From Desulfobacterales bacterium (GTDB lineage: Bacteria > Desulfobacterota > Desulfobacteria > Desulfobacterales > JAHDSC01): a stretch of 64,000 nucleotides of DNA. The notes under the pieces are model-generated. The model made no database searches and was not told where the DNA came from. It saw only the letters and a list, made by a program, of their open reading frames with translations. The position numbers and the translations under genes are program-made. Below, in pieces: positions 9,429 to 46,636 of this stretch. The stretch lies in assembly GCA_016931455.1 (NCBI GenBank), contig JAFGES010000065.1, forward strand, positions 2,097 to 66,096, read 5' to 3'. Within the stretch, counting starts at the first letter, position 1. The number at the start of each line of letters is the position of its first letter.

Positions 9429-9435
9429 TCCCTAA

Positions 9436-23061: not shown

Positions 23062-23193
23062 GTTATTCAAATCGATATTTACCCCAACGTTGCAAAAGCC
23101 GGGGAGGGTAAAAAGGCGGTTACCTTGAAAAATTGCTGTTGAAAAATTACTTGACAGAATTTTTATATGAGATATAGGGTGATTCATATTTTG

Positions 23194-23358
23194 GATCAGG
23201 TGCTCATAATGAGCTGAAAAGGGAACCCTCGTGAAAATCGGGGACGGGCCCACCGCTGTAATCGGGGACGAAGGTCGCAAAATACCACTGATGAAGACAT
23301 TTTCATTGGGAAGGTGCGACCGGTAGAATGAACCGTGAGTCAGAAGACCTGCCTGATC
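23194..23358 (+). promoter_or_regulatory. Cobalamin (B12) riboswitch aptamer
   Basis: P1 pairs GATCAGG (23194-23200) with CCTGATC (23352-23358). The conserved core reads AAAAGGGAACCCTCGTGAAAATCGGGGACGGGCCCACCGCTGTAA, then ACCACTG, GGGAAGG and AGTCAGAAGACCTGCC (the B12 box). Confidence 0.85.
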
Positions 23359-23422
23359 ACTGAGCCGACCGCACAGGGATGGTGCCCGGCATTTCAGATC
23401 TATTCGGATAAAAAAGGGAAAT

Positions 23423-23459
23423 CCCCGGATCGAAATTAAAATCGGTCCGGGGTTTTTTT
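23423..23459 (+). terminator. Intrinsic terminator (riboswitch expression platform)
   Basis: CCCCGGATCGA pairs with TCGGTCCGGGG, giving an 11 bp stem with one G-U pair and an 8-nt loop. A T7 tract follows, 13 nt before the cobN-like ATG. Confidence 0.75.
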
Positions 23460-23472
23460 ATGGGGTGAAGAT

Positions 23473-26400
23473 ATGAGGAATTATCGTCTTGAGTTTAAGT
23501 CGGCAGCAACTCTATTTTTAATAGGATGTATGGTTTTGATACTGCTACCCTTTGAGGTTTCGGCTGAAAATGTGGCTATTTTGGAGGTAGATATCAATAG
23601 CTATCAGGTCCATAAGGCCGTAAAGCAACTGAATCTTCCCGAATCAATTGATACACGGTTTTTCACTTTTGAAGACCTGAAAAAGAATGAGACGGCCAAA
23701 GCATTCATTTCCGATTCGTCCGTCGTCTTCGTCAATGTCATGATGCCCGAACTGGCCGATTTTATGGTCAATGAAAAATTGATGAACGGCCGTGCCGTCT
23801 ATGCGCTGAACCAGGCCGGCGATCCGGAAGCGTTGGCCAAAAAGGGGTATTTGTTCGACCCGATGATCATGGACTACTACCACAACCTGACTGCTGCAAA
23901 TATGGTCAATATGGTGCGCATGGCCGTTAATTGGCATATGGATCCCACGGTCACCTTCGAAGCGCTGGAAAAGTTGCCGGAAGGATGTATCTATCATCCG
24001 GATGCACCGGAAAAATTTCAGGAATTGACGGCATATAAAAAGTGGTATGCCGGTCGTGCCGAATACAGACCTGAAAATCCATGGGTGGGTATCCTATTTT
24101 ACAATACCACCTTAAAGGAAGGGCAGGTGGAAGCGGCTTGCGCACTGATTGGAAAACTGGAGTCTTCCGGATTCAATGTACTTCCCTGTTTCGGTCCGGT
24201 CCAAATGGTATTGACGCAATATTTAAAACCCGTTGCCGGAAAATCGCCGGTGGATATGGTGCTGGCATTTACCATGAAGTTTTCTTCCGGTATCAACGAT
24301 GAAATTCGTTCGGCACTGGTTAACTTGAATGTTCCGGTCTTTAATGTGATCCGACCCTACGGTGAAACCATAGAACAGTGGCGGCAAAGCGAGGTGGGGC
24401 TTGGGCCCATGGAAACGGTCTGGGCGGTGGCTACCCCCGAGTTTTCCGGTGCCGTTGAACCGACCGTGCTGATCGGCAAAAAGGAAATCATCGATCCTGA
24501 AACCGGCCGGCGTCTGTATGTATATGAAACTATCGAGGAGACCATCGATTTTCTCATTCCGCGTCTGAAAAAATGGGCGGCACTGCAGCGCAAACCCAAT
24601 GCGGAAAAGAAGGTGGCCATAATCTACTACAATCACAGCCAGGGCAAACAAAATATTGCTGCGGCCTATCTGAACATTTTCCGAAGCCTTCAGAACATTT
24701 TGAACCGTATGAAACAGGAAGGCTACACCATCGATCAGGCGGATAGGCTCACGGAAGAGGGGATTAAAGATATGATTCTAACCAGCGGACGCAACATCGG
24801 TTCCTGGGCGCCCGGAGAACTGGATGTCCTGTTGGCGTCCGGTGAAGCAGAGCAGGTTTCCCTGGCGGAATATAAATCATGGTTTGACAGCCTGCCTGAG
24901 GATTTTAAAAAACCGGTGATCGCCCAATGGGGCACACCGGAAGACTGTACGATCATGACCAAAGACGGCCGGCTGGTTTTTCCGATGGTTAAATTAGGAA
25001 ATCTGGTATTGTTGCCGGAACCGGCCCGGGGGTGGTCGGACGATCCCATGAAACTCTATCATGACACCACTCTTTATCCCCATCATCAGTATATCGCAGC
25101 CTACCTCTGGCTCTCTAAAAAATTTCAGGCCGATGCCATGGTGCATTTGGGAACCCATGCGACCTATGAATGGCTTCCGGGCAAGCAGGCCGGGCTTTGT
25201 CCTTCCGACCCGCCGGAGATCATGACCGGCAGTATTCCCAATATCTATCCCTATATCGTGGATGATGTGGGCGAAGGGATCGAGGCCAAGCGCCGGGGCC
25301 GGGGGGTAATCCTCGATCACCTGACACCCCCGATGAAAGAGGCTGACCTATACAATGAGTACCGCAAAATTCATGAGTTGTTTCATAAATGGGAAATCGC
25401 CAAAGCCAACGGCAGCGAGACAGCATCCGAATACAAGCGGGAAGTGCTTAAGATGGTTGAGGAAACCGGAATTGCCAATGACCTCTCAATAAATGAGATG
25501 AATGAAGAGGCCATGGAAAAGATTCATCTTTACCTTCACGAGATTGACACCAATTCTCTGCCCTATGGATTGCACACCTACGGCAAACCCTACGACCCGG
25601 ATGCGGCCGCCGAGACGATTCAACTGATTATGAAACAGAATCCAAAAGCGGATAAAAAACAGGTGCGCCGTGATTTGGATGCCTCTTCTGTGCGAGAGAT
25701 GGACAATTTTATTCGTGCCCTCAACGGTGAGTATGTACCGGCCGGGGAGGGCAACGATCCTTTGCGGAATCTTGCAGCAATTCCGACCGGAAAGAACTTT
25801 TACGGATTCTCACCGGCCAAGGTTCCTTCAAAAGCCGCCTGGGAGATCGGCAAACGTGCTGCCGTGCAGATGATTGAAGAAAAGCTTAAAAAAGAAGGAA
25901 AATATCCGGTAAAAGTCGGGGTGGTTCTCTGGGCCACGGAAACCACGCGCAATGAGGGCGTTCACGAAAGTACCATTCTTTATCTAATGGGAGTGGAGCC
26001 GATCTGGGATGCCACTGAGCGGGTGACGGGCAGCCGAGTCATTCCGGGACCGCAATTGGGAAGACCTCGTATCGATGTGCTGATTAATCCCTCCGGTCTG
26101 TATCGGGATATGTTTCCCGATAAGCTCATTTTCCTGGATAATGCAGTGCAAAAAGCTATGGCTCAGACCGATATCGAAAATTTTCTCGCCAAAAATAAAG
26201 CGGTCATTAAAACGGCTCTGTTAGCTTCAGGCATGAATGAAGCAGATGCTGAGGTGCAGTCGCGCTTTCGAATATTTACTGAAAAAACCGGCTCCTACGG
26301 CAACGGCGTGGCGGAAATGGCGGTTGATTCAGGATTGTGGGAATCCGATGAGGCCGTCAGCGATGTATACTTGAACCGGGTACAGTTTGCCGTGGGTCAG

Positions 26401-27654
26401 GGAAAATGGGCGGTTCCAGTCAAAGCCGCATTTAAAGAAAATCTACGCGGTGTGGATATCGCAGTGCACTCCCGTTCCAGTAATGTAATCGGGATCATCG
26501 ATACCGATGATTTTTTCATGTATCTGGGGGGCATGTCGCTAGCCGTAAAAAACATCAAAGGGAAAGCGCCGGATACCATGGTGACCATGCACCGCCGGAA
26601 AGACGAACTAATGGTGGAAGATGTAACCAAGACCATCGGCCGGGAAATGCGTACTCGCTATCTCAATCCCCAATGGATTGAGGGGATGAAGCGCGACAAC
26701 TACGCCGGTGCCAGGCAAATGGCCGATTTTACGGAAAACCTATGGGGCTGGCAGGTCACGGTACGCGATGCCGTGGATGCGGACAAGTGGCAGCAAATAT
26801 TTGAGGTTTATGTGGAGGACAAATACGGGATGGAGTTATCCGAATTTTTTAGTAAAAATAACCCTTGGGCCTATCAGTCCATGACGGCCCGAATGCTGGA
26901 GGCTGTGCGCAAGGAGTATTGGAAGGCCGAAGAAAAGGTCACGAAAAAGCTGGCCGCCGAATATGCGTTGAATGTGGTGGAAAAAGGGGTGGCCTGCTGC
27001 AGTCACAGCTGTAACAATCCCATGCTCAACCACATGGTGATCGACATTATCTCCCTGCCCGGCGGACTCTCACCGGAGATGGTTGCGAAATTTAAATTGG
27101 CTTTGGAAAATATGGCAGCCAAAACCCTTGATGAGCAGGTCGCTGAAAGACATAAATTGCTGGCAGAACTTAAAACCGATTTGGGAAAGATGGATCAAGA
27201 CGTGCCACAGGATGCCCAAAAGACATCGGAAAAGCCTATGGAACCGCAAAAAATTGCTGATACTGAAAATTTAGAAAATGTCGAAGGCTATAAGATGGAG
27301 GATATCAAGAATCAGGATAAGATCACGGATTTTAGTTCATCCAGCGTCAAATGGATTGTACCGCTTTTTGTCCTTTTGTTGATCGGGTTGTTTTTATGGT
27401 TTTATCGAAAATCGGCCGTCACACTGCCGAAATCATTTTTGGCCAAGTCCATGTTTGTAATGGCCGTCTGCTTTTTTATCTCAGTGGCTGTTATGCCGTT
27501 ATTCGATGATCTGGAAAGCGTTTATCAAATGGCCCGATATCATAGCGATACAAAAGCCCAAAAAGCATTTCCCATTTTTCCTATAATCTTTACGGCAACG
27601 GCCTTTGCAGCCGGCTTTGGTTTCAAGAACAAAGAAATAAGGAGCCTAACATGA
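23473..27654 (+). CDS. CobN/Mg-chelatase-family large subunit homologue with signal peptide and C-terminal TM anchor
   Basis: 1393 aa with a CobN-type body. The N-terminus KSAATLFLIGCMVLILLPFEVSA-EN looks like a Sec signal. The last 110 aa contain three hydrophobic helices (VKWIVPLFVLLLIGLFLWFY, MFVMAVCFFISVAVMPLF, FPIFPIIFTATAFAAGFGF). Confidence 0.9.
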   Translation: MRNYRLEFKSAATLFLIGCMVLILLPFEVSAENVAILEVDINSYQVHKAVKQLNLPESIDTRFFTFEDLKKNETAKAFISDSSVVFVNVMMPELADFMVNEKLMNGRAVYALNQAGDPEALAKKGYLFDPMIMDYYHNLTAANMVNMVRMAVNWHMDPTVTFEALEKLPEGCIYHPDAPEKFQELTAYKKWYAGRAEYRPENPWVGILFYNTTLKEGQVEAACALIGKLESSGFNVLPCFGPVQMVLTQYLKPVAGKSPVDMVLAFTMKFSSGINDEIRSALVNLNVPVFNVIRPYGETIEQWRQSEVGLGPMETVWAVATPEFSGAVEPTVLIGKKEIIDPETGRRLYVYETIEETIDFLIPRLKKWAALQRKPNAEKKVAIIYYNHSQGKQNIAAAYLNIFRSLQNILNRMKQEGYTIDQADRLTEEGIKDMILTSGRNIGSWAPGELDVLLASGEAEQVSLAEYKSWFDSLPEDFKKPVIAQWGTPEDCTIMTKDGRLVFPMVKLGNLVLLPEPARGWSDDPMKLYHDTTLYPHHQYIAAYLWLSKKFQADAMVHLGTHATYEWLPGKQAGLCPSDPPEIMTGSIPNIYPYIVDDVGEGIEAKRRGRGVILDHLTPPMKEADLYNEYRKIHELFHKWEIAKANGSETASEYKREVLKMVEETGIANDLSINEMNEEAMEKIHLYLHEIDTNSLPYGLHTYGKPYDPDAAAETIQLIMKQNPKADKKQVRRDLDASSVREMDNFIRALNGEYVPAGEGNDPLRNLAAIPTGKNFYGFSPAKVPSKAAWEIGKRAAVQMIEEKLKKEGKYPVKVGVVLWATETTRNEGVHESTILYLMGVEPIWDATERVTGSRVIPGPQLGRPRIDVLINPSGLYRDMFPDKLIFLDNAVQKAMAQTDIENFLAKNKAVIKTALLASGMNEADAEVQSRFRIFTEKTGSYGNGVAEMAVDSGLWESDEAVSDVYLNRVQFAVGQGKWAVPVKAAFKENLRGVDIAVHSRSSNVIGIIDTDDFFMYLGGMSLAVKNIKGKAPDTMVTMHRRKDELMVEDVTKTIGREMRTRYLNPQWIEGMKRDNYAGARQMADFTENLWGWQVTVRDAVDADKWQQIFEVYVEDKYGMELSEFFSKNNPWAYQSMTARMLEAVRKEYWKAEEKVTKKLAAEYALNVVEKGVACCSHSCNNPMLNHMVIDIISLPGGLSPEMVAKFKLALENMAAKTLDEQVAERHKLLAELKTDLGKMDQDVPQDAQKTSEKPMEPQKIADTENLENVEGYKMEDIKNQDKITDFSSSSVKWIVPLFVLLLIGLFLWFYRKSAVTLPKSFLAKSMFVMAVCFFISVAVMPLFDDLESVYQMARYHSDTKAQKAFPIFPIIFTATAFAAGFGFKNKEIRSLT

Positions 27655-28289
27655 TTGAAATTGGTGCATTACTGAAAGCCTTTATTTACTTCATCTCTTC
27701 TGTTCTACTATATCCCGTTTTGTTTCTGTTGGTGATTTTGACCTTGCTGATCATCGTCTATGCCGGATCGTTTTTGGCCGAATGGTTGGAACGTTTTCGG
27801 ATGCAAAAATGTCCGCCTCAAGAGCTACCGGCCATGATGAAAAACGGCGAACCATCAACAGTTTTTTCCCACCGGGTGAACCAATATATCCAAATGATGC
27901 ATCAAGCCAAAGACGGTAATAATTCAGGTGAGGTTGCCATTGAAAATCTGCTTCAGGAAATGACTCTGAAGATGTGGAAATCCATGGACCGGCTCAGAAT
28001 TTTGGTGCGGGTAGCGCCGTCCCTTGGTTTGATCGGTACGCTGATCCCTATGGGCACCGGATTGGCAGCCTTGGGACAGGGGGATATGACTCAGCTTACC
28101 ACGAATTTGGTCATTGCCTTTACGACCACGGTAGTGGGCCTTGCCGTCGGTACGTTAGCTTTTTTCTTTTATACGGTCAAGCGGCGCTGGATCGAAGAGG
28201 ACGTTAAGAACATGGAAATAGCGACTGAAATGGCAATGTACGACGCAGAAAGGATGGAAGATGAGATACTTTCAACGACGGAGAATTAA
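27651..28289 (+). CDS. MotA/TolQ/ExbB-family proton channel protein
   Basis: The start overlaps the cobN-like stop (ATGA). It has three TM segments and the family motif APSLGLIGTLIPMGTGL. Confidence 0.85.
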   Translation: MIEIGALLKAFIYFISSVLLYPVLFLLVILTLLIIVYAGSFLAEWLERFRMQKCPPQELPAMMKNGEPSTVFSHRVNQYIQMMHQAKDGNNSGEVAIENLLQEMTLKMWKSMDRLRILVRVAPSLGLIGTLIPMGTGLAALGQGDMTQLTTNLVIAFTTTVVGLAVGTLAFFFYTVKRRWIEEDVKNMEIATEMAMYDAERMEDEILSTTEN

Positions 28290-28626
28290 CAAAACCGTCA
28301 GAGCCTTCGGCAATCCCGCCTTCAGGGATGATGATCCCATGACCGGTGTCGCCAACCTGTTTGACATCGGTTTGGTCTTTATCGTGGGGCTGCTTATGAC
28401 CATTTTTAGTGCCTATCGTCTCCAAGATCTGTTTGATCAAAAATCGGAAATGACCATCATGAAACAGCAAAATTCCGGTGAGATGGAGATCATTATCAAG
28501 AAAGGCACAAAAATCAAGGCCACGAAAGTGACCCGGGAAGCGGCCAAAGGTATGGGTAACCGGCTCGGCGTGGCCTATCGGTTGGAAGACGGATCCATGG
28601 TGTATGTTCCGGATGAAAAGGAGTAG
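28261..28626 (+). CDS. DUF2149 protein with ExbD/TolR-like topology
   Basis: It overlaps the previous gene by 29 nt. DDPMTGVANLFDIGLVFIVGLLMTIF forms a single TM segment, followed by a soluble domain of about 70 aa. Confidence 0.7.
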   Translation: MRYFQRRRINKTVRAFGNPAFRDDDPMTGVANLFDIGLVFIVGLLMTIFSAYRLQDLFDQKSEMTIMKQQNSGEMEIIIKKGTKIKATKVTREAAKGMGNRLGVAYRLEDGSMVYVPDEKE

Positions 28627-28633
28627 AAAATAA

Positions 28634-30655
28634 ATGAAAAAAATGTCGATTTATAAACGATTGCAGGTAGTTTTCGTTGTTTTCTGGATTAGCCTCGCTA
28701 CGGTCGGCTGGGCTGAGCCCATCAACATAACCGATGACGTTGGAAACCCAATACGCCTCGACGAGCCGCCCCGGCAGGTAGTTTCACTCATGCCATCGGC
28801 CACTGAAATCATTTTTGCCGTTGGTGCCGGTGATGCCCTGGCGGGAATCACCTATCACAGTACCGCTATTGCCGGCGCTGCAGATAAAACCATTGTCGGC
28901 GGTTTTTTTTCCCCCTCGGCAGATCACGTCATGTCGCTTAAACCCGATCTTATCATTGTTTCTTCATTTCACGATAAGTTTGTCGAGCAGCTACCTGCCG
29001 GAGTCCCGATTTTGGTGATAAACACCCTAAAAATGAACGATGCATTTCATCATATCCAATTGATCGGCGATCTTTTTCACCGGGAGCTGGAAGCCTCGGA
29101 ATTAATGAAGAAAATCCAGCGGCAACTGGACCTAATTGCCCGAAAGGTGGCTGAAATTCCCGAAGAAAAACGAAAACGCGTCATGCGTCTGATGGGCCGA
29201 GAACAAATCATGACGCCGGGAAACGACTCGTTTCAAAACGAGATCATCCGAGCTGCCGGCGGCATTGCTCCGGATTTTGGAAAATCCGGAAGTGTGGTGC
29301 CGGTGACACGGGAAGAATTTATACGGTTTAATCCACAAATTATCTATGGATGCGGTGACGACGCAAAAGCGGCGGATTCCTTTTTTTCACAAGAGGGTTG
29401 GTGTTCCGTAGCTGCAGTAAAGAACCATCGGATCCACTCCTTTCCCTGTGATCTGACCTGCCGGGCCGGTATTCACTTGGGAGATTTCGTCTCCTGGCTA
29501 TCTTCGATGATTTACACCGATGAATTCTCAGATGCCGACCATGAACTGCTTTCCCGAAAGGTCATTCATACCCGGCCGATCCGTATTTTACTGGATTATG
29601 TCCAAGACGCGGAAATTGCCACCAGTATTCTCCACGATTTTGAAAGCAAGAGCCTCATCATCAATTTTCGATCCCCCATGGCCGTGGTCTCCACCCTCGA
29701 AGGGCAACGGCAAGGTGTACTTACGGTGGGCAATCATTACTCTCCACCCCCTTGCTGGGCTTTGAACCATTCTTGCAGCATAAAGGAACTTCGTGCGAAT
29801 CTTTATTCCGTGATCGGAAAAACTGCAGAAAACGCCTCTTTTTTATTCACCGGTGCCAATATGGACAATTTGGCCGTTAAAAAGGAAACCTTTAAGGAAA
29901 TGACGGTCTATGCCTTGGTTACCGCCGGAGTTCGCGGTAATGCCGTGCGCATGGGAACCGATACCGGCAATTACTATGAGCCGGGCACCATCAACATGAT
30001 CTTTCTCACCAACATGAAACTGAGTCCACGGGCCATGACCCGGGCCATTATTTCGGCCACCGAAGGCAAAACCGCCGCCTTGCAAGACTTGGACATCCGT
30101 AGCACGTATCAGCCGTTGACGGCCGCCGCCACCGGTACCGGTACGGATAATATCCTAGTGGTTCAGGGGGATGGATCGGCTATCGACAATGCCGGCGGGC
30201 ATTGCAAAATGGGTGAGCTCATCGCCCGCGCGGCTTACGCCGGTGTTCGCGAGGCCATTTTCAAGCAAAACGGGATCGTCGGCAAGCGGGATATTTTTCA
30301 ACGTTTAGCCGACCGTCACCTGAGCATTTCTCAACTGATTGCGGATGTTTCCTGTAGCTTATGCAACTTGCAGGGATATAAAAAAACTTTTTCAGGCCGG
30401 GTGGAACAGGTGCTGTTGGATCCTGCCTATGCCGGATTTCTGGAAGCGGCCATGAGCCTGAGTGATGGTGTCGGGCGGGAAACAATAAATGATATTTCCT
30501 TTTACGAAACATGGTGCCTTGACGTGGCGGGTCGGATTGCCGGTAAAAAGGTGGCAAAAATAAACACCCATTTTTCAAACGATGTTTTGCCCAGGCCGCT
30601 ATCGATGGCACTGAATGCAATTTTTACAGGGGTTTCCTTTCTTCCAATGCAATAA
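28634..30655 (+). CDS. Secreted BtuF-like periplasmic binding protein fused to CbiZ-like adenosylcobinamide amidohydrolase
   Basis: Signal peptide MKKMSIYKRLQVVFVVFWISLATVGWA. The N-terminal half is Peripla_BP_2-like (VVSLMPSATEIIFAVGAGDALAGIT, KPDLIIV). The C-terminal half is CbiZ-like (GTINMIF, AATGTGTDN). Confidence 0.8.
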   Translation: MKKMSIYKRLQVVFVVFWISLATVGWAEPINITDDVGNPIRLDEPPRQVVSLMPSATEIIFAVGAGDALAGITYHSTAIAGAADKTIVGGFFSPSADHVMSLKPDLIIVSSFHDKFVEQLPAGVPILVINTLKMNDAFHHIQLIGDLFHRELEASELMKKIQRQLDLIARKVAEIPEEKRKRVMRLMGREQIMTPGNDSFQNEIIRAAGGIAPDFGKSGSVVPVTREEFIRFNPQIIYGCGDDAKAADSFFSQEGWCSVAAVKNHRIHSFPCDLTCRAGIHLGDFVSWLSSMIYTDEFSDADHELLSRKVIHTRPIRILLDYVQDAEIATSILHDFESKSLIINFRSPMAVVSTLEGQRQGVLTVGNHYSPPPCWALNHSCSIKELRANLYSVIGKTAENASFLFTGANMDNLAVKKETFKEMTVYALVTAGVRGNAVRMGTDTGNYYEPGTINMIFLTNMKLSPRAMTRAIISATEGKTAALQDLDIRSTYQPLTAAATGTGTDNILVVQGDGSAIDNAGGHCKMGELIARAAYAGVREAIFKQNGIVGKRDIFQRLADRHLSISQLIADVSCSLCNLQGYKKTFSGRVEQVLLDPAYAGFLEAAMSLSDGVGRETINDISFYETWCLDVAGRIAGKKVAKINTHFSNDVLPRPLSMALNAIFTGVSFLPMQ

Positions 30656-30673
30656 CTACTAAAGGTTTTCATC

Positions 30674-32635
30674 ATGCGCACATTCGTCCCATATGCTCAG
30701 TTTTTTTCTTGTCCCGTGACTTATTCTCGGAATCGATCCGTATTTTTGAAACAGCTTGTATCAGCAATTCTGCCGGTGGTGTTTTTAATCCTGATGATTA
30801 CGCATGCCACGGTTTACGGACAACAAAACCACTCACACGGTCATTCGGTTGATTCCACGGTTATGGAAAACATTGTCGTGACGGCCGACCGTATTGATGA
30901 ATACATAGAAAATTATCCTAACCAGGTCGTGATGCTGAGTAAGGAAGATATTGCTCGGCGCAATATGCTTAGCGTGGAGGAAGCGATGAGATCAATGCCC
31001 GGGGTGGACGTAAAGAGAAGTTCGGGAATCGGTTCCCGAATTTCCATTCGGGGTTCGGGAAAATCCGGTGGCGTCCTGGTGCTTCTCAACGGTCGCCCTT
31101 TAAACAGCAGCCAGTATGGTGGGACGGATCTGTCCACCATCCCCATCGACATTGTTCAGTCCATCATTGTTTTCAAACCGCCCGTCCCTGTATGGCTGGG
31201 GCCCGGGGGCAGCGACGGGGCAATCAATATCGTCACCCGCGATCCGATCGGTAAAAAGGAAAAAAAGCGCCATTCGACTCAAATCAGAGGTGCCGGCGGT
31301 TCTTACGGACTGATCGAGGGGAGTTTGACCCATCGCAACAGCTTGGACTTAGGAACGATCATGGCCACGGCGGCCGGTACACACCGGGACGGCAAACGAA
31401 CGAACGGCGACAGGGACAGCGGTACCGTTTGCCTGCACTGGGACCGGGAATCGGCGAGTGAGCGGCAGATGGAAATCGACGGCCGGTACTATGAATCGGA
31501 ATACGGCTCAACAGGTCCGGTGGACAACCCAACACCGGATGCCCGGCAGGAATACAAAAAGTTTTCCGTCGACGGCCGTATCGGCGGCATTGTCGACAGT
31601 GCGTGGGACTATGCAATCAACCTATACGGTGATACGGTCGATCTAACGGACGAATCCCAGTTCGGGTCAACCTCCACCCTTGACAGCGTCAAATGGGGGT
31701 TAAAAGGGGAAAGCAACTGGTGCGATGAAGATAATGCCTGGGAACTTCGTCTCAACGGTCTTGTTGAACGCGACGATGTGGATCACACTCTTTCAGGTCA
31801 ACACCACCGGGTCACTGCCGGGCTCGGGGCCCAAGTTGACCGGCGCTGGCAATCCCTTACCGGCACGGTAGGACTTCGTGGGGATCACACCAGCGATTTT
31901 GACTTTATTCCCGGATTTTCCAGCGGCCTGAGCTTCAGTGCGGCCAAACACTGGACGGCTAAGGTAAATGCCGGTTACACGATGAATATTCCTACCTTCG
32001 GCCAGCTTTACCAGCCCAGCCACGGCAGCATTGACCAAGTGCGCGGCAATCCGGATCTGGACAAAGAAAAAATCTGGTCATACGATGCCGGGATTGAATA
32101 CCGCCGGGACAAAACCCACCTGTTCCAGGTGTCTCTGTTTCGGTCGGATACCCAAGATCCCATTGTATATCAACGGGGCATCGATCTGATCTATCGGCCG
32201 GTAAACACGGATCGCTCGTGGCGGCACGGTTTTGAGGTTAGCTTTAAACACGGTTTTGATTTCGGGCTGATTGCCGATATCAACGCCATTGTTCAGGACT
32301 CGGAAATTTGCGATACCGAAAAGGAACTACCCTATACGCCTCGCGTCAAATTGAAAGGGTCGCTTCAATATACCTTGCCGGAGCCCGGCACTCGGCTGGA
32401 AACGACGATAAGGTATTGCTCAAAACAGTATAGCGAGGTGGAAAACCGTAAATCCGAGCGGATTGACGACTATATTACCGTGGATCTTAAAGCGGTCCAA
32501 CCGTTTAAGCTCAAAACAATGGCCGCTGAGTGGTTTGTGAGCGTTGAAAATCTGTTTGACACCGATTATCAGATCCACTACGGCTATCCCGATGACGGCA
32601 TCAGGTTTGTCTCCGGCCTGAATTTAACGCTTTAA
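30674..32635 (+). CDS. TonB-dependent outer-membrane receptor (BtuB-like context)
   Basis: It has a signal sequence, a plug region (IVVTADRI, VDVKRSSGIGSRISIRG, NGRPLN), a beta-barrel, and a terminal aromatic-rich segment ending in L. Confidence 0.85.
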   Translation: MRTFVPYAQFFSCPVTYSRNRSVFLKQLVSAILPVVFLILMITHATVYGQQNHSHGHSVDSTVMENIVVTADRIDEYIENYPNQVVMLSKEDIARRNMLSVEEAMRSMPGVDVKRSSGIGSRISIRGSGKSGGVLVLLNGRPLNSSQYGGTDLSTIPIDIVQSIIVFKPPVPVWLGPGGSDGAINIVTRDPIGKKEKKRHSTQIRGAGGSYGLIEGSLTHRNSLDLGTIMATAAGTHRDGKRTNGDRDSGTVCLHWDRESASERQMEIDGRYYESEYGSTGPVDNPTPDARQEYKKFSVDGRIGGIVDSAWDYAINLYGDTVDLTDESQFGSTSTLDSVKWGLKGESNWCDEDNAWELRLNGLVERDDVDHTLSGQHHRVTAGLGAQVDRRWQSLTGTVGLRGDHTSDFDFIPGFSSGLSFSAAKHWTAKVNAGYTMNIPTFGQLYQPSHGSIDQVRGNPDLDKEKIWSYDAGIEYRRDKTHLFQVSLFRSDTQDPIVYQRGIDLIYRPVNTDRSWRHGFEVSFKHGFDFGLIADINAIVQDSEICDTEKELPYTPRVKLKGSLQYTLPEPGTRLETTIRYCSKQYSEVENRKSERIDDYITVDLKAVQPFKLKTMAAEWFVSVENLFDTDYQIHYGYPDDGIRFVSGLNLTL

Positions 32636-32639
32636 TTGT

Positions 32640-33242
32640 TCACTTTTTTTCATTAGAAACCGAGGGATGCTTTCCCTCAAATTCAGCAATCCGTTGACGG
32701 ATGGCATTAAGCTGCTGTTCCATTTGTTTTGCCAGCGCTTTCAGATCCTTGATTTCTTGTTCTTCAGAATGCTGTTTAATCGGCGGCATAGGTGGGCTTT
32801 CGGTAACCATCCGACCGGCGCCCATCCCCATGCCTCTCCCCATACCTTTTCCCATTCCCATGCCTCTTCCACCACCCATTCCCGTACCGAAACGGCTTTG
32901 CACATTGGGTGCTGATGAGCCGGAAAGTGTCCCGGTTTTATATTGCCGGACCGCCTCGTGGACCTTTCCTCCGACACCGGTTATCACCTGAATTCCGGCG
33001 GCGCCAAAAGTTTTAAAAGCGTTCGGACCGCAATTGCCGGTCAGCACGACCGATACGTTTTTTTCGGCCATAAGCTGCGCCGACTGAATACCCGCACCAC
33101 CTCCTAGTGAAATATTGGGGTTTGGAACGGCTTCAAATTCCATGGTATCCGGATCAATGACCAAGAAATAAGCGCAACGTCCAAAACGTATTTCCACTGA
33201 ATCATCCAGCGTAGGTCCTGTGGCTGTAACTGCTATTATCAT
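32640..33242 (-). CDS. NifX/NifB-like (dinitrogenase FeMo-cofactor-binding fold) protein with Gly/Met-rich coiled-coil tail
   Basis: The first 105 aa read FGRCAYFLVID...GAGIQSAQLM...VLTGNCGPNAFKTFGAAGIQV. The tail reads GMGGGRGMGMGKGMGRGMGMGAGR, followed by EEQEIKDLKALAKQMEQQLNAIRQRIAEFE. Confidence 0.8.
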   Translation of the reverse strand: MIIAVTATGPTLDDSVEIRFGRCAYFLVIDPDTMEFEAVPNPNISLGGGAGIQSAQLMAEKNVSVVLTGNCGPNAFKTFGAAGIQVITGVGGKVHEAVRQYKTGTLSGSSAPNVQSRFGTGMGGGRGMGMGKGMGRGMGMGAGRMVTESPPMPPIKQHSEEQEIKDLKALAKQMEQQLNAIRQRIAEFEGKHPSVSNEKK

Positions 33243-34189
33243 GTTTTTTTCTCCTTCTCTCTATTGACGGCTGAGTAATATATCGCGGTATTTTTGCGTT
33301 GCATGCGGATTTGATCGGTTCTTAACAGTTTTCCGAGGTATTTGGACACCTCATTGAGGTGCATACCTAGTCCGTCGGCAATCTGTTGTGCCGTGCACGG
33401 ACGGCGCTGCAACATGAAAAAAATCGTGTCTTGGTTCGCTCGAACATCTTTGGTATGGTTCGTGCTGAATTCTGCAATGATTTCCGCGGTCGGATGAAAC
33501 AAATGGGTTAATGCTATCATCTGTTCTTTGGATAGGGCCGTGGCATAATCCTCGGCCGGTGGACGAACAACCGTATTGATTTGAATGCGGTCCGGGCCGA
33601 TTTCCTTTGCCAAGGCGGCAATTTTCCGGACATCGGCAGGTATTGAGTTAATCCCTGCTATCAGGAAAACCTCCATCCATAGCCGGCCCTTAAATTGAGA
33701 GCGAAACGTCTTTTGCCCTTCGACCAACCGATCAAACCTTAATTGAGGATGGGGACGATTCACCAACTCGTAAGAAGCCTGGTTCCAGGCACTTAGGGAA
33801 ACCTTGACGACGTCGGCATAAGCGGCGGCATCGCGTACTTCCGGAAGATACAGCATCGTAGCGTTGGTTAACAGCGCGGCAGGAATTGTGCTGTTTGTGT
33901 GTATAAACTCGAGAATTTCCCCGAACCGGGAATGGAGTGTGGGTTCACCGGAACCGGAAAGGGTTATATAGTCCGCCTTGCCGCCTGTTTTCAGCCAATG
34001 TTCGAGTTCAGCAAGCACATCCGCCGTCGGAACATATTCTTTGCGGACTATCGTTTTTTGCGGGGTTCGACCCAACTGACAGAAAACGCAATCGAAGCTG
34101 CATGTTTTGTAAGGGGTCAGGTCGACCCCCATAGAACGGCCAAAGCGACGAGAGGGTACCGGACCGAACAAATAGTGATACTTTTCCAT
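33239..34189 (-). CDS. Radical SAM protein with C-terminal winged-helix domain
   Basis: The CxxxCxxC motif is CSFDCVFC, preceded by GPVPSRRFGRSMGVDL. The C-terminus MLQRRPCTAQQIADGLGMHLNEVSKYLGKLL is wHTH-like. There is a 4-nt overlap with the next gene. Confidence 0.85.
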   Translation of the reverse strand: MEKYHYLFGPVPSRRFGRSMGVDLTPYKTCSFDCVFCQLGRTPQKTIVRKEYVPTADVLAELEHWLKTGGKADYITLSGSGEPTLHSRFGEILEFIHTNSTIPAALLTNATMLYLPEVRDAAAYADVVKVSLSAWNQASYELVNRPHPQLRFDRLVEGQKTFRSQFKGRLWMEVFLIAGINSIPADVRKIAALAKEIGPDRIQINTVVRPPAEDYATALSKEQMIALTHLFHPTAEIIAEFSTNHTKDVRANQDTIFFMLQRRPCTAQQIADGLGMHLNEVSKYLGKLLRTDQIRMQRKNTAIYYSAVNREKEKKT

Positions 34190-34209
34190 TATAATTTTCC
34201 CGCTAATGC

Positions 34210-34244
34210 AGGATAAGCCATCAGTTGATCCGGTGGCTTATCCT
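34210..34244 (-). other. Intercistronic stem-loop between the DUF5320 and radical SAM genes
   Basis: AGGATAAGCCA pairs with TGGCTTATCCT in a perfect 11-bp stem with a 13-nt loop. No U-tract follows on the coding strand. Confidence 0.45.
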
Positions 34245-34273
34245 GTGCCGTTAGCCTGCCTACAAGGCGGTTA

Positions 34274-34636
34274 TTACTTTGTCTTTTCACTTTCAAGTTC
34301 CGCAATCCGCCTCTTTATTCCTTCAAGATCATCTGCAAGATATTTGGCCTCGTCCTGGAGTGCCTCCATTTCTTGTTGTCGTGTCGGTACGGCCGGATAT
34401 GGTGCTGCATACGGTCCACCATACCCCCCATAGGGTACGGCCCAGCGTCCTCGACGACATCCTCGGAATCCGTATCCGAAACCTCGGCCGAAACCTCGGC
34501 CGAAACCAAATCCGCCGTATGCACGACCGAAGGCCGGGTTCGCAAACCCCGGTGTTGAATGTCCGGCACAATACCCTGCGCCTCGTCCTGTCATCGATCC
34601 CATCCCTGCGGGACCTGTTCCATCTCCACCCGGCAT
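34274..34636 (-). CDS. DUF5320 family protein
   Basis: The N-terminus reads MPGGDGTGPAGMGSMTGRGAGYC. A Gly/Phe/Arg-rich middle is followed by the coiled coil RQQEMEALQDEAKYLADDLEGIKRRIAELE. An AAGGAGG Shine-Dalgarno lies upstream. Confidence 0.75.
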   Translation of the reverse strand: MPGGDGTGPAGMGSMTGRGAGYCAGHSTPGFANPAFGRAYGGFGFGRGFGRGFGYGFRGCRRGRWAVPYGGYGGPYAAPYPAVPTRQQEMEALQDEAKYLADDLEGIKRRIAELESEKTK

Positions 34637-34699
34637 GGTAACCTCCTTTCTTGGTGTTTAAAGTTAAATTAGCTACTTCTCTAATCAATCTAACTCTAC

Positions 34700-34715
34700 G
34701 CAATTTGTGTGCCAA
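34700..34715 (-). promoter_or_regulatory. Sigma-54 promoter (-24/-12)
   Basis: The minus strand reads TTGGCAC-ACAAA-TTGC, an exact TGGCAC-N5-TTGC core. The -12 element lies 64 nt upstream of the DUF5320 ATG. Confidence 0.6.
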
Positions 34716-34841
34716 ATAAGAAAGGTTATTTTGTTTAAGCCGCAACTGCTATGATACTAAAGACTTAAGAACTAATCAGGATTGCAGGAAGAATATTCAT
34801 TGTGCGAAATGAGTAGCATAAATGCAACTATACAGTAGTCA

Positions 34842-46541: not shown

Positions 46542-46619
46542 TGGCGTCCCCAAGGGGATTCGAACCCCTGTTGCCGGCGTGAAAGGCCGGTGTCCTGGGC
46601 CAGGCTAGACGATGGGGAC
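46542..46619 (-). tRNA. tRNA-Glu (anticodon UUC)
   Basis: The reverse complement is GTCCCCATCGTCTAGCCTGGCCCAGGACACCGGCCTTTCACGCCGGCAACAGGGGTTCGAATCCCCTTGGGGACGCCA. The acceptor stem pairs, the loop reads CTTTCAC, and CCA is encoded. Confidence 0.9.
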
Positions 46620-46636
46620 ATATTTGTTTTATGAAA

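What the first reader, a model, noticed from the sequence alone, without database searches (positions are those of the whole stretch)
23194..32635. B12-riboswitch-gated operon couples an exported, membrane-anchored CobN-family chelatase to an ExbB/MotA-type proton channel and DUF2149, with no AAA+ chelatase partners and no BtuCD
Seen in the sequence: a canonical cobalamin aptamer plus terminator sits 13 nt before a five-gene operon. The genes are tightly packed (ATGA overlap, 29-nt overlap, 7-nt and 18-nt gaps). The 1393-aa CobN homologue has a Sec-type signal (..LILLPFEVSA-EN) and three C-terminal TM helices, so its chelatase body is predicted to face the periplasm. It is followed by a MotA/TolQ/ExbB channel and a single-TM DUF2149 protein with ExbD-like topology. 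Then come a secreted BtuF-CbiZ fusion and a TonB-dependent receptor. Established knowledge: class I chelatases (CobNST, ChlHID) need AAA+ ChlI/ChlD-type partners and ATP in the cytoplasm, and corrinoid import normally uses BtuCD. Neither is encoded here. Inference: this is a pmf-powered extracytoplasmic tetrapyrrole-processing machine. It could salvage cobalt by dechelating corrinoids, or handle and remodel corrinoids, and it would be repressed when B12 is replete. The closest architecture I know is the hmuYRSTUV heme locus of Porphyromonas and Bacteroides (CobN-like HmuS plus MotA/ExbB-like and small TM proteins). A corrinoid-regulated counterpart has, to my knowledge, not been characterised.
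Basis: partly seen in the sequence, partly recalled or inferred. Interest (0 to 1): 0.8.

Follow-up and report, generated by a model that had tools for sequence, protein, structure and literature searches.

The report
B12-switched periplasmic CobN-like salvage operon
A vitamin-B12-sensing RNA switch controls an operon, common in sulfate-reducing bacteria, that puts a cobalt-chelatase-like enzyme outside the cytoplasm beside a proton-channel pair and a corrinoid-trimming enzyme; it is the corrinoid-linked cousin of the recently solved heme "de-chelatase" system, and what it does chemically has never been tested.

Summary
A full-length cobalamin riboswitch (116 bits) plus an intrinsic terminator precedes five tightly packed genes. 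They encode an exported, membrane-anchored CobN-family protein, a MotA/ExbB-family protein, DUF2149, a secreted BtuF-CbiZ fusion and a TonB-dependent receptor. There is no AAA+ chelatase partner and no BtuCD.

The module is not a one-off. It recurs in at least 579 species genomes, mostly Desulfobacterota. About two thirds of the assessable loci have a cobalamin riboswitch upstream.

Two corrections apply:
- The "three C-terminal helices" arise from an in-frame fusion to the tail of a DUF2162 gene, which is a separate gene in most relatives.
- The kind is not unknown. It is the BtuS/HmuS family, predicted as B12-regulated in 2003. Bacteroides HmuS was shown in 2025 to be a periplasmic heme de-chelatase.

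This Desulfobacterota lineage differs from HmuS. Its third catalytic position is CobN-type (D-x-D-D, not LSLDH). It lacks the Met-rich insertion. In two genomes it is fused to BtuF-CbiZ in a single polypeptide. It is often co-transcribed with cbiK or cbi genes.

Best reading: a B12-repressed periplasmic system that processes corrinoids or cobalt. Its chemistry is untested. I rate it a new variant of a known kind, of moderate-to-high interest.

The parts
23151..23178 (+). Possible sigma-70-type promoter: TTGACA (23151-23156), 16 nt, TATAGG (23173-23178). It would start the transcript at about the first base of the aptamer. Tentative.
   Evidence: Read by eye. It is not listed by the consensus scan, whose rule requires T at position 6 of the -10 hexamer.
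23181..23370 (+). Cobalamin riboswitch aptamer
   Evidence: RF00174, 116 bits, E 2.2e-28, full-length match.
23423..23459 (+). Intrinsic terminator (expression platform): an 11-bp stem with 8 G-C pairs, then T7
23473..27654 (+). CobN-family (BtuS/HmuS-type) protein, 1393 aa. Features: signal-like N-terminus (aa 1-31); chelatase body; catalytic-site residues H562 and E601 plus D1010-x-D1012-D1013; CCxHxC (aa 1175-1180); membrane anchor (aa 1294-1314).
   Evidence: Pfam CobN-Mg_chel 1069 bits. Best solved relative is HmuS 9d26, 533 bits, against CobN at 442 bits. Family invariants come from 77 sequences.
27400..27651 (+). DUF2162-derived tail fused in frame to the CobN-like gene. It holds the last two membrane helices of DUF2162. 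The PCPxC-bearing core of DUF2162 is missing.
   Evidence: tblastn with the L013 DUF2162 protein gives 44% identity, E 7e-19. A weak Pfam DUF2162 hit covers aa 1284-1383. The same fusion occurs in P0050 and loci L081-L083.
27651..28289 (+). MotA/TolQ/ExbB-family protein (HmuU-like), 212 aa, three membrane helices
   Evidence: Pfam MotA_ExbB, E 5.6e-15. It is 35% identical to Bacteroides-type HmuU, E 4e-34.
28261..28626 (+). DUF2149 protein (HmuV-like), 121 aa, with a single membrane helix carrying the invariant Asp35 (28363-28365)
   Evidence: Pfam DUF2149, 109.6 bits. It is 36% identical to HmuV, E 9e-23. Invariant columns are listed.
28634..30655 (+). Secreted BtuF-like binding domain fused to CbiZ (adenosylcobinamide amidohydrolase family), 673 aa
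   Evidence: Pfam Peripla_BP_2 plus CbiZ. Signal-like N-terminus. 43 of 44 family members have such a segment. The fusion is present in 42 related loci.
30674..32635 (+). TonB-dependent outer-membrane receptor, weakly BtuB-like. The TonB box ENIVVTA (30866-30886) aligns with the BtuB TonB box. A short His-rich stretch follows the signal peptide.
   Evidence: Pfam Plug plus barrel. Best solved relatives are E. coli BtuB, 60 bits, with the alignment starting at BtuB residue 4. NCBIfam BtuB models score below their cut-offs.

Best explanation
This is the Desulfobacterota version of the BtuS/HmuS-type envelope system. It is an operon repressed by B12, through a cobalamin riboswitch with a terminator, that brings corrinoids across the outer membrane and works on them in the periplasm.

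Shown by sequence and comparison:
- the riboswitch and terminator;
- the export signals;
- the domain identities;
- conserved synteny across hundreds of genomes;
- the absence of AAA+ partners;
- a CobN-type catalytic constellation;
- physical fusion of BtuF, CbiZ and the CobN-like protein in some genomes.

Inferred order of events:
1. The TonB-dependent receptor, energised by an ordinary TonB system encoded elsewhere, imports cobamides or cobinamide.
2. The BtuF domain captures them. The fused CbiZ domain cuts off the aminopropanol/nucleotide loop, giving a cobyric-acid-like 'headless' corrinoid. This closely resembles the normal product of CobN.
3. The membrane-anchored CobN-like enzyme binds this corrinoid in its central cavity.

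My committed guess for the chemistry is that it runs the CobN reaction backwards, as HmuS does for heme. It would free cobalt, or at least labilise and hand it over, for the cell's own de novo B12 pathway (cytoplasmic CbiK and the cbi genes nearby).

The MotA/ExbB-like pentamer-type channel and the Asp-bearing DUF2149 would form a proton-driven unit docked to the conserved juxtamembrane segment and anchor of the CobN-like protein, together with DUF2162 in most relatives. This unit would stand in for the missing ATP-driven ChlI/ChlD-type motor, or it would move the product across the inner membrane.

Confidence by level:
- member of the BtuS/HmuS-type system, about 0.9;
- substrate is a corrinoid or cobalt species rather than heme, about 0.7;
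- cobalt removal or hand-over rather than mere binding or import, about 0.4.
For: Regulation:
- RF00174 at 116 bits plus a terminator.
- In 62 related loci with usable upstream sequence, 32 have a cobalamin riboswitch directly upstream and 9 have one further upstream on the same strand. Rfam cross-checks agree.

Location:
- Signal-like N-termini occur in 77 of 80 CobN-like and 43 of 44 BtuF-CbiZ proteins.
- A C-terminal anchor followed by basic residues is seen in all aligned members.

Kinship with a proven de-chelatase system:
- The best solved relative is HmuS.
- HmuU and HmuV orthologues lie in the same gene order.
- HmuS is a periplasmic, membrane-bound heme de-chelatase (PMC12583661).

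Corrinoid or cobalt rather than heme:
- The catalytic positions equivalent to ChlH H621, E660 and H1174 (PMC13297055) are H562, E601 and D1013 here. The D-x-D-D-F/Y-F/Y-x-Y-L-G-G motif is found in 75 of 77 family members and in all three solved CobN proteins. HmuS has LSLDHxxEFMGG and ChlH also has His at this position.
- There is no counterpart of the region that holds the Met-rich insertion in HmuS (HmuS residues 695-928 are unmatched), and the HmuS heme ligand His-254 is not conserved.
- BtuF-CbiZ is present in 42 loci.
- BtuF-CbiZ-CobN-like occurs as one ORF in L038 and L063.

Link to de novo synthesis and cobalt demand:
- cbiK lies in 29 loci, mostly without a signal peptide.
- Corrin-ring cbi genes lie in 12 loci, some directly downstream in the same direction.

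Coupling of the channel pair to the CobN-like protein rather than to the receptor:
- 36 of 37 loci of at least 18 kb have the pair, and 9 of those have no receptor within 10 kb.
- Invariant GYKME and SSGxQW segments sit at the anchor.
- The CobN-like anchor is fused to the DUF2162 tail in two lineages only 66% identical to each other.

No alternative energy partner:
- No ChlI-like P-loop ORF occurs in any of the 80 loci.

Proton-relay hallmark:
- An invariant Asp lies in the DUF2149 helix.
Against: - Removing cobalt from a corrin ring has no biochemical precedent. The Co-corrin bond is regarded as very inert (own knowledge).
- Destroying a late B12 precursor to gain one cobalt ion looks wasteful.
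- The His/Asp difference follows lineage rather than regulation. The riboswitch-controlled, cbi-adjacent Bacteroidota locus L085 keeps the HmuS-type LSLDH motif.
- HmuS works in vitro without HmuTUV (PMC12583661), so a need for proton-motive force is unproven.
- DUF2149 has no significant profile similarity to ExbD.
- 21 of 62 assessable loci have no riboswitch.
- The window itself has lost the conserved PCPxC core of DUF2162, so that part cannot be essential here.
- A few loci also carry BtuF plus FecCD plus an ABC ATPase. Whole-corrinoid import may therefore run in parallel, or may be the real purpose.
- Clustering with cbiK and cbi genes could simply reflect membership of one B12 regulon.
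Confidence: 0.45

Rival explanations
1. Corrinoid import and remodelling without metal removal. The CobN-like protein would be a periplasmic corrinoid receiver or chaperone for the CbiZ product. DUF2162 together with the MotA/ExbB-like and DUF2149 proteins would be a proton-driven inner-membrane route that replaces BtuCD. The cytoplasm would then rebuild the cobamide with its preferred lower ligand.
For: - The components are BtuB-like, BtuF-like and CbiZ.
- The riboswitch is typical of btuB operons.
- CobN naturally binds a corrinoid (established knowledge).
- FecCD permeases are absent from 51 of 56 larger loci.
- Pfam labels DUF2162 a predicted transporter.
- The BtuF-CbiZ-CobN-like fusions fit substrate hand-over.
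Against: - Catalytic H562, E601 and D-x-D-D are invariant, which a mere binding protein would not need.
- Many loci have the CobN-like, channel-pair and DUF2162 genes but no BtuF-CbiZ or receptor, and sit inside cbi operons.
- The window and the P0050 lineage have lost the DUF2162 core yet keep everything else.
- Some loci carry BtuF, FecCD and an ABC ATPase as well.
- A periplasmic CbiZ is not needed for ordinary remodelling.
Confidence: 0.3
2. An ordinary HmuS-type heme de-chelatase used for iron. The cobalamin riboswitch would be a secondary or historical regulatory layer, as for the B12-box reported inside the P. gingivalis hmu operon.
For: - HmuS is the closest solved relative.
- The equivalent of the HmuS heme ligand Met-79 is invariant (M90).
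- A B12-box is reported in the hmu operon (PMC11681262).
- B. fragilis BtuS1 and BtuS2 contribute to the use of heme iron (PMC6460266).
Against: - The HmuS-defining motif LSLDHxxEFMGG, His-254 and the Met-rich insertion are all absent.
- No HmuY-like gene appears in any locus.
- The partners are CbiZ, CbiK and cbi genes, not heme genes.
- Identity to the Bacteroidota proteins is only 28-29%.
Confidence: 0.1
3. The MotA/ExbB-like and DUF2149 pair is just a dedicated TonB-system paralogue that energises the operon's outer-membrane receptor. The CobN-like protein would act independently of it. This is how the HmuS paper draws HmuU and HmuV.
For: - MotA_ExbB family membership.
- An Asp-bearing single-pass partner.
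- The receptor has a canonical TonB box.
- The figure legend in PMC12583661 assigns HmuU and HmuV to powering HmuR.
Against: - No TonB-like C-terminal domain occurs in the module.
- Canonical TonB, ExbB and ExbD genes lie beside many loci: ExbB in 16, ExbD in 15, TonB in 6.
- Nine of 36 large loci have the pair and the CobN-like gene but no receptor.
- The pair co-occurs with the CobN-like gene in essentially every locus that has enough flanking sequence.
Confidence: 0.15
4. Uptake of inorganic or loosely complexed cobalt. The receptor would import a cobalt complex. The CobN-like protein would act as a periplasmic cobalt-binding or loading protein. DUF2162, with PCPxC in a membrane helix, would be the ion path. 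BtuF-CbiZ would be an accessory.
For: - The module lies inside cbi operons, where cobalt transporters normally sit.
- DUF2162 has nearly invariant PCPxC, His and Lys.
- His-rich tracts occur in some receptors, CobN-like proteins and one exported CbiK.
- The CobN-like protein carries a CCxHxC motif.
Against: - A 1300-aa tetrapyrrole-enzyme scaffold with its full catalytic site is excessive for binding an ion.
- The BtuF-CbiZ-CobN-like fusions point to a corrinoid substrate.
- The window lacks the PCPxC core.
Confidence: 0.12

Closest known systems
hmuYRSTUV of Bacteroidota, with HmuS as heme de-chelatase (B. thetaiotaomicron, PDB 9d26; P. gingivalis; B. fragilis BtuS2)
   Same: - A TonB-dependent receptor.
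- An exported, membrane-anchored CobN-family protein.
- A polytopic membrane protein, then a MotA/ExbB-family protein, then DUF2149, in the same order.
- No AAA+ partner.
- A shared C-terminal extension beyond the end of CobN, containing two conserved Cys.
   Different: - Only 28-29% identity.
- Asp replaces the family-defining His-1209, and there is no Glu-1212.
- No His-254 and no Met-rich insertion.
- No HmuY.
- HmuT is not detectably related to DUF2162.
- The partners here are BtuF-CbiZ, CbiK and cbi genes.
- A cobalamin riboswitch is present here, while the B. theta-type locus L084 has none.
'BtuS' family: B12-regulated CobN-like proteins predicted for metalloporphyrin salvage (Rodionov et al. 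2003, as cited in PMC6460266). A Bacteroidota example is L085.
   Same: - A cobalamin riboswitch.
- A receptor, an exported CobN-like protein, MotA-like and DUF2149 proteins.
- CbiK and cbi genes next door.
- This is the family I file the window under, in the broad sense.
   Different: - The Bacteroidota example keeps the HmuS-type LSLDH motif and has an exported CbiK and XusB rather than BtuF-CbiZ.
- I could not read the 2003 paper itself, so I cannot say which Desulfobacterota loci it covered, if any.
- No experiment has addressed a corrinoid role.
Class I cobaltochelatase CobN-CobS-CobT (aerobic B12 pathway)
   Same: - CobN-Mg_chel fold.
- The catalytic His and Glu, and the CobN-type D-x-D-D-Y/F-Y/F-Q-Y/F-x-G-G motif.
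- The natural ligand of CobN is a corrinoid.
   Different: - This protein is exported and membrane-anchored.
- There are no CobS/CobT or ChlI/ChlD partners in the window or in the 80 loci.
- It scores far below every NCBIfam CobN equivalog cut-off.
- It has an extra C-terminal region with CCxHxC and an anchor.
TonB-ExbB-ExbD, TolQ-TolR and MotA-MotB proton-driven stator units
   Same: - MotA_ExbB family membership and three-helix topology.
- A small N-in, single-pass partner with an invariant Asp in the helix.
   Different: - The DUF2149 periplasmic part shows no detectable similarity to ExbD.
- There is no TonB or TolA gene in the module. The only conserved single-pass candidate partner is the anchor of the CobN-like protein (inference).
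BtuB-BtuFCD uptake plus cytoplasmic CbiZ corrinoid salvage and remodelling (archaea, Rhodobacter sphaeroides)
   Same: - Riboswitch-controlled BtuB-like receptor.
- BtuF-like binding domain.
- CbiZ domain with a full-length Pfam match.
   Different: - CbiZ is fused to BtuF and carries a signal peptide, so it is predicted to act in the periplasm.
- BtuCD is absent from the window and from most related loci.

Membership tests
HmuS/BtuS-type periplasmic CobN-like proteins | CobN-Mg_chel domain, with HmuS as the nearest characterised relative | tested here: met
   Pfam 1069 bits. PDB 9d26 HmuS scores 533 bits against 442 for CobN and 397 for ChlH.
HmuS/BtuS-type periplasmic CobN-like proteins | Exported body held at the inner membrane (N-terminal signal or anchor plus C-terminal helix) | tested here: met
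   Sequence prediction only. The signal-like N-terminus and an anchor followed by basic residues are conserved across the family. No experimental topology is available.
HmuS/BtuS-type periplasmic CobN-like proteins | Operon partners: HmuU (MotA/ExbB), HmuV (DUF2149) and a TonB-dependent receptor | tested here: met
   The partnership is conserved in 65-66 of 80 loci.
HmuS/BtuS-type periplasmic CobN-like proteins | An HmuT-type membrane protein between S and U | tested here: inconclusive
   Relatives have DUF2162 at that position. It shows no significant similarity to HmuT (hhalign E 0.04). The window keeps only the last two helices of DUF2162, fused to the CobN-like gene.
HmuS sensu stricto (heme de-chelatase) | LSLDHxxEFMGG motif with His-1209 and Glu-1212 | tested here: not met
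   The window has IIDTDDFFMYLGG. D1013 is Asp in 75 of 77 family members. The motif definition comes from PMC12583661.
HmuS sensu stricto (heme de-chelatase) | Site-1 heme ligands Met-79 and His-254 | tested here: not met
   The Met equivalent, M90, is invariant. The His position holds Ser or another variable residue. The alignment in this region is weak.
HmuS sensu stricto (heme de-chelatase) | Methionine-rich insertion in domain IV | tested here: not met
   HmuS residues 695-928 have no counterpart. A few relatives carry His-rich inserts there instead.
HmuS sensu stricto (heme de-chelatase) | Converts heme to protoporphyrin IX plus Fe(II) | not testable with these tools
   This needs a biochemical assay.
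CobN subunit of class I cobaltochelatase | Catalytic His and Glu plus the CobN-type acidic motif | tested here: met
   H562, E601 and D1010-x-D1012-D1013 align with the three solved CobN proteins.
CobN subunit of class I cobaltochelatase | AAA+ partners (CobS/CobT or ChlI/ChlD) and a cytoplasmic location | tested here: not met
   No such gene in the operon, in the 35 of 46 window ORFs of 150 aa or more scanned with Pfam, or in the 80 loci. An export signal is present. Partners elsewhere in the genome cannot be excluded.
CobN subunit of class I cobaltochelatase | Reaches an NCBIfam CobN equivalog cut-off | tested here: not met
   The best score is 941 bits against a cut-off of 1619. All nine models score below their cut-offs.
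Cobalamin riboswitch (RF00174) | Covariance-model score above gathering, with a full-length aptamer | tested here: met
   116 bits against 31.5, model positions 1-189. Ligand binding was not tested.
ExbB-ExbD/TolQ-TolR-type stator | MotA_ExbB channel subunit | tested here: met
   Pfam 55.7 bits against a cut-off of 22.9. All NCBIfam equivalogs score far below their cut-offs.
ExbB-ExbD/TolQ-TolR-type stator | ExbD/TolR-homologous partner with a protonatable Asp in its helix | tested here: inconclusive
   Asp35 is invariant and the topology fits. hhalign against ExbD gives E 0.069 and aligns the helix only. The AF2 model has pLDDT 62 and Foldseek found nothing.
BtuB | Plug, barrel, TonB box, and the NCBIfam BtuB equivalog score | tested here: inconclusive
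   The domains and a TonB box aligned with that of BtuB are present. The score is 107-115 bits against cut-offs of 600-836.
CbiZ | Full-length CbiZ domain | tested here: met
   Pfam 173 bits, profile positions 2-191 of 191. Activity and the predicted periplasmic site of action are untested.

The most novel reading that the evidence does not exclude
The CobN-like protein is a corrinoid de-chelatase. It would be the first enzyme known to take cobalt out of a corrin ring. It would work in the periplasm on the product of a secreted CbiZ. It would be driven, or gated, by a MotA/ExbB-DUF2149 proton motor that replaces the AAA+ ATPase of cytoplasmic class I chelatases. Sulfate reducers living in sulfidic, cobalt-poor settings would then mine other organisms' cobamides for cobalt.
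Probability: 0.25. Interest if true: 0.9.

Novelty: new variant of a known kind. Interest (0 to 1): 0.6.

Why it matters
Class I chelatases are textbook ATP-dependent cytoplasmic machines. HmuS showed in 2025 that one branch works outside the cytoplasm and in reverse, on heme.

This locus is the clearest corrinoid-linked member of that branch, for four reasons:
- it is switched by B12;
- it is fused in some genomes to a corrinoid binder and a corrinoid hydrolase;
- it carries the CobN active-site signature rather than the HmuS one;
- it sits next to de novo B12 genes in hundreds of Desulfobacterota species.

It makes three open questions directly testable:
- Can biology de-metallate corrinoids?
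- What are the HmuTUV-type proteins (MotA-like, DUF2149, DUF2162) for?
- How do anaerobes in sulfidic habitats obtain cobalt or recycle foreign cobamides?

It also shows that thousands of database entries named 'cobaltochelatase subunit CobN' in these bacteria are very probably not biosynthetic CobN.

Tried and rejected
1. DUF2149 as an ExbD homologue. hhalign of family alignments gave E 0.069 and aligned only the membrane helix. The AlphaFold2 model from 40 sequences had pLDDT 62 and pTM 0.25, and Foldseek against the PDB gave no hit below E 0.09. Homology is not shown. Only the analogy of topology and Asp is kept.

2. HmuT equals DUF2162. hhalign gave E 0.04 and probability 1.3%. Rejected as shown homology.

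3. 'His versus Asp at the third catalytic position tells porphyrin from corrin'. This is weakened by L085, a riboswitch-controlled, cbi-adjacent Bacteroidota locus with the His motif. I keep it as supporting evidence, not proof.

4. The three-helix anchor as a family feature. Rejected. It is a fusion. It is not an assembly artefact either, because it recurs in P0050 on six contigs.

5. The operon's CbiK as periplasmic. Mostly rejected, since only 7 of 33 have a signal-like segment.

6. Search for ChlI/ChlD in related loci through Walker-A-bearing unassigned ORFs. Only three turned up and none is ChlI-like.

7. Rodionov 2003 and 2006 and the Gray and Escalante-Semerena CbiZ paper are not held in the library. 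What I say about BtuS comes second-hand from PMC6460266.

8. Literature searches for DUF2162, for BtuS with corrinoid, and for CobN with TolQ and riboswitch found no description of this Desulfobacterota system.

9. Searching with a 196-aa HmuS fragment returned only short gene fragments. These were still usable for reaching loci L084 and L085.

Full report
**1. What is in the window**

A full-length cobalamin riboswitch aptamer lies at 23181-23370 on the + strand (RF00174, 116 bits, E 2.2e-28). It is followed by a strong intrinsic terminator: stem 23423-23452 with 11 pairs, 8 of them G-C, then T7. The first start codon, at 23473, comes 13 nt after the T run.

- an ATGA overlap,
- a 29-nt overlap,
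- a 7-nt gap,
- an 18-nt gap.

Pfam assigns them as follows:

| ORF | Length | Pfam family (bits) |
|---|---|---|
| 23473-27654 | 1393 aa | CobN-Mg_chel (1069) |
| 27651-28289 | 212 aa | MotA_ExbB (55.7) |
| 28261-28626 | 121 aa | DUF2149 (109.6) |
| 28634-30655 | 673 aa | Peripla_BP_2 (85.5) + CbiZ (173) |
| 30674-32635 | 653 aa | Plug (63.2) + TonB-dependent barrel (111) |

None of the five reaches any NCBIfam equivalog cut-off.

The receptor's best solved relatives are E. coli BtuB. Its ENIVVTA stretch aligns with the BtuB TonB box. The binding domain is a generic BtuF/heme/siderophore-class protein.

I found no ChlI/ChlD, CobS/T, BtuC/D, TonB, ExbD, CbiK or cbi gene in the window. This rests on Pfam scans of 35 of the 46 ORFs of 150 aa or more, the five operon genes among them, and on tblastn with representatives of six of these families against all 64 kb. 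The nearest relatives are Desulfosarcina, Desulfatitalea and Desulfobacteraceae, at up to 80% amino-acid identity.

**2. It is a conserved module, not a chance arrangement**

A scan of one genome per species found more than 579 relatives of the CobN-like protein. I kept the best 80 loci, which are almost all Desulfobacterota, with single Synergistaceae, Planctomycetaceae, Poribacteria and Polyangia/Myxococcales genomes.

I mapped the window's proteins onto these loci and clustered all their ORFs:

| Gene | Loci (of 80) |
|---|---|
| MotA/ExbB-like | 65 |
| DUF2149 | 66 |
| Separate DUF2162, about 250 aa | 58 |
| Receptor | 49 |
| Full BtuF-CbiZ fusion | 42 |
| cbiK | 29 |
| Corrin-ring cbi genes | 12 |

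Most loci that lack a given gene are short contigs.

Among the 37 loci of at least 18 kb, 36 have the channel pair and 34 have DUF2162. Nine have the pair and the CobN-like gene but no receptor within 10 kb. The pair therefore belongs with the CobN-like gene rather than with the receptor.

Two gene orders dominate:
- (receptor)-CobN-like-DUF2162-MotA-like-DUF2149-BtuF-CbiZ-receptor-CbiK
- receptor-DUF2162-MotA-like-DUF2149-BtuF-CbiZ-CobN-like-CbiK

No ChlI-like P-loop ORF exists in any locus.

**3. Regulation**

Rfam found one to three cobalamin riboswitches in each of six loci. I built an nhmmer profile from those hits and applied it to all loci. Of 62 loci with usable upstream sequence:
- 32 have a riboswitch directly upstream,
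- 9 have one further upstream on the same strand,
- 21 have none.

Rfam re-scans of 14 of the 'none' loci confirmed the absence on the operon strand: the only hit, in L071, lies on the opposite strand. Several riboswitch-less loci sit inside cbi biosynthetic operons. B12 control is therefore the rule for this lineage, but not universal.

**4. The C-terminal 'three helices' are a gene fusion**

Relatives end with one anchor helix followed by basic residues. In the window the reading frame runs on into about 80 residues that align with the last two helices of the DUF2162 protein of relatives (44% identity, E 7e-19). The stop codon of the CobN-like gene and roughly the first 165 codons of DUF2162 are gone. 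This includes the nearly invariant K20, H83, W93 and the PCPxC motif in a membrane helix.

The same fusion, at the same junction, occurs in P0050. That protein is only 66% identical and was seen on six contigs, in an operon that also lacks a separate DUF2162. That locus has a cobalamin riboswitch as well.

The fusion is therefore real and maintained. It also argues that the CobN-like anchor and DUF2162 touch each other in the membrane.

**5. Family features of the CobN-like protein**

In 77 aligned members the following are invariant or nearly so:
- M90
- HLGTH(A/G), with H562
- E601
- D1010-x-D1012-D1013
- C1175-C1176-x-H1178-x-C1180-NNP
- GYKME (1272-1276)
- SSGxQW (1289-1294), at the start of the anchor

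Signal-like N-termini occur in 77 of 80 CobN-like proteins and in 43 of 44 BtuF-CbiZ proteins. Only 7 of 33 CbiK proteins have one, so the linked CbiK is mostly the cytoplasmic enzyme.

Two loci encode BtuF, CbiZ and the CobN-like protein as one ORF with one signal peptide and one anchor: L038 (1968 aa) and L063 (2024 aa). This is the strongest evidence that all three act on one substrate in one compartment.

**6. Relation to what is known**

The best solved relative is B. thetaiotaomicron HmuS (9d26, 533 bits). It scores ahead of CobN (442 and 426 bits) and ChlH (397 bits).

HmuS is a periplasmic, membrane-bound, NADH-dependent heme de-chelatase (PMC12583661). In P. gingivalis, hmuU is annotated as MotA/TolQ/ExbB and hmuV as DUF2149 (PMC11681262).

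I retrieved a B. theta-type locus, L084. Its order is HmuY-HmuR-HmuS-HmuT-HmuU-HmuV. Compared with the window:
- HmuU is 35% identical (E 4e-34) and HmuV 36% identical (E 9e-23).
- HmuT is not detectably related to DUF2162.
- HmuS is only about 29% identical.

The concept of a B12-regulated CobN-like 'BtuS' family for metalloporphyrin salvage goes back to Rodionov et al. 2003, as cited by Rocha et al. They showed that B. fragilis BtuS1 and BtuS2 contribute to the use of heme iron and are predicted to be periplasmic (PMC6460266). A B12-box is also reported within the P. gingivalis hmu operon.

I also found a Bacteroidota locus, L085, with a cobalamin riboswitch, receptor, XusB, an exported CbiK, a CobN-like gene, MotA-like and DUF2149 genes, a second receptor, CbiK and cbi genes.

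The kind is therefore known.

**7. How this lineage differs from HmuS**

The HmuS paper defines the family by three features:
- LSLDHxxEFMGG, with His-1209 and Glu-1212,
- heme ligands Met-79 and His-254,
- a Met-rich insertion.

Here the first motif reads IIDTDDFFMYLGG. It matches the three solved CobN proteins (D-S-D-D-Y-Y/F-Q-F/Y-x-G-G). HmuS and ChlH both have His at that position.

That position, together with the equivalents of H562 and E601, forms the essential catalytic trio of ChlH: H1174, H621 and E660 (PMC13297055).

The Met-79 equivalent is conserved but His-254 is not. The region that holds the Met-rich insertion in HmuS has no counterpart. A few relatives carry His-rich inserts at that place.

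One caveat applies. L085 is riboswitch-controlled yet has the His motif. The His/Asp difference therefore tracks lineage, and it is supportive rather than decisive.

**8. The channel pair**

The MotA/ExbB-like protein has the three-helix ExbB/TolQ layout.

DUF2149 has a basic N-terminus, one helix with an invariant N-L-F-D-x-G-L-V-F-I-V-G core (Asp35), and a periplasmic part of about 70 residues. This is the topology and the proton-relay hallmark of ExbD, TolR and MotB.

Homology could not be shown. hhalign gave E 0.069, and the structure model was poor, with no Foldseek match.

There is no TonB-like gene in the module. Canonical TonB, ExbB and ExbD genes often lie alongside.

**9. Most likely mechanism**

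Shown: B12-sensing leader, export signals, domain identities, conserved linkage, fusion evidence, CobN-type catalytic residues, and no AAA+ partner.

Inferred:
1. The receptor imports cobamides or cobinamide.
2. BtuF-CbiZ binds them and removes the nucleotide loop.
3. The CobN-like enzyme acts on the resulting cobyric-acid-like corrinoid.
4. The MotA-like/DUF2149 unit, with DUF2162 in most genomes, couples proton flow to the enzyme or to moving the product across the inner membrane.

I commit to cobalt removal or hand-over for de novo synthesis as the most likely chemistry, at about 0.4. My reasons:
- the analogy with HmuS;
- the retained catalytic site;
- the otherwise puzzling periplasmic CbiZ;
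- co-transcription with cytoplasmic CbiK and cbi genes;
- loci that have the module but no corrinoid binder.

Against it:
- corrin de-metallation has no precedent and is chemically hard (own knowledge);
- HmuS needs no partner in vitro;
- import and remodelling explains the BtuB, BtuF and CbiZ parts equally well.

The rivals are given with their tests in the structured fields.

**10. Verdict**

- The locus is a new, corrinoid-linked variant of the known BtuS/HmuS kind. It is widespread in Desulfobacterota and uncharacterised.
- Its main value is as a direct handle on two questions: whether corrinoids can be de-metallated biologically, and what the MotA-like/DUF2149/DUF2162 proteins do.

Noticed in passing
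L038:8015-13921 and L063:1287-7361: Single ORFs of 1968 and 2024 aa fuse a signal peptide, a BtuF-like domain, CbiZ and the CobN-like protein. This is a 'Rosetta stone' link between the three.
   Followed up: yes
window 27400-27651; L081-L083 (P0050): The tail of a DUF2162 gene is fused in frame to the CobN-like gene in the window. A lineage only 66% identical has the same fusion. Both have lost the conserved PCPxC-bearing core of DUF2162.
   Followed up: yes
L085:1924-20885: A Bacteroidota locus with a cobalamin riboswitch, receptor, XusB, an exported CbiK, an HmuS-motif CobN-like gene (split by frameshifts), MotA-like and DUF2149 genes, a second receptor, CbiK and a cbi biosynthesis operon. 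It is probably the 'BtuS1'-type arrangement.
   Followed up: partly
P0103; L033:9917-13945; L071:7077-11240; L078:14586-16523; L003:19830-21833; L031:395-1318; window 30821-30847: His-rich tracts occur in three places: in some CobN-like proteins at the site of the HmuS Met-rich insertion; just after the signal peptide of some receptors (weakly in the window's receptor, QQNHSHGHS); and in one exported CbiK. They may bind divalent metal.
   Followed up: partly
DUF2162 genes of relatives, e.g. L013:6475-7218: DUF2162 has a nearly invariant PCPxC motif inside a membrane helix, plus conserved Lys, His and Trp. This suggests a soft-metal path or a thiol-based electron relay across the membrane. The library holds no literature on it.
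   Followed up: partly
P0080, P0109: In P0080 the CobN-like protein is followed in the same ORF by a complete TonB-dependent receptor. In P0109 it is followed by an Slp outer-membrane lipoprotein domain. These may be read-through or assembly artefacts, or real links to the outer membrane.
   Followed up: no
L070:9752-23547; also L015, L049, L062, L003: L070 has three CobN-like genes in tandem. Four other loci have two copies each.
   Followed up: no
window 4783-12102 (- strand): A type VI secretion cargo cluster: VgrG (9877-12102), DUF2169 (8382-9428), a PAAR-like toxin domain protein (6482-7294) and a TsiV-like immunity protein (4783-5673).
   Followed up: no
window 49773-52773 (- strand): An ECF-type transporter module sits next to a BirA-like biotin ligase/repressor. 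It comprises a CbiQ-family T component, an ABC ATPase and a small 177-aa ORF. It looks like bioYMN rather than a cobalt transporter.
   Followed up: no
window 32640-35891 (- strand): Genes convergent with the end of the operon: a Nitro_FeMo-Co/DUF5320 protein, a radical SAM protein and an ArsP_2-type 10-helix permease.
   Followed up: no
window 46542-46709 (- strand); window 97-1320 and 39368-40555: tRNA-Glu(TTC) and tRNA-Lys(TTT) lie side by side. Two AAA_14 plus DUF4143 ATPase genes lie at separate places in the window.
   Followed up: no
L002:21826-21893: An Rfam c4-2 antisense-RNA family hit just above its gathering score (41.2 against 41), next to a second cobalamin riboswitch.
   Followed up: no
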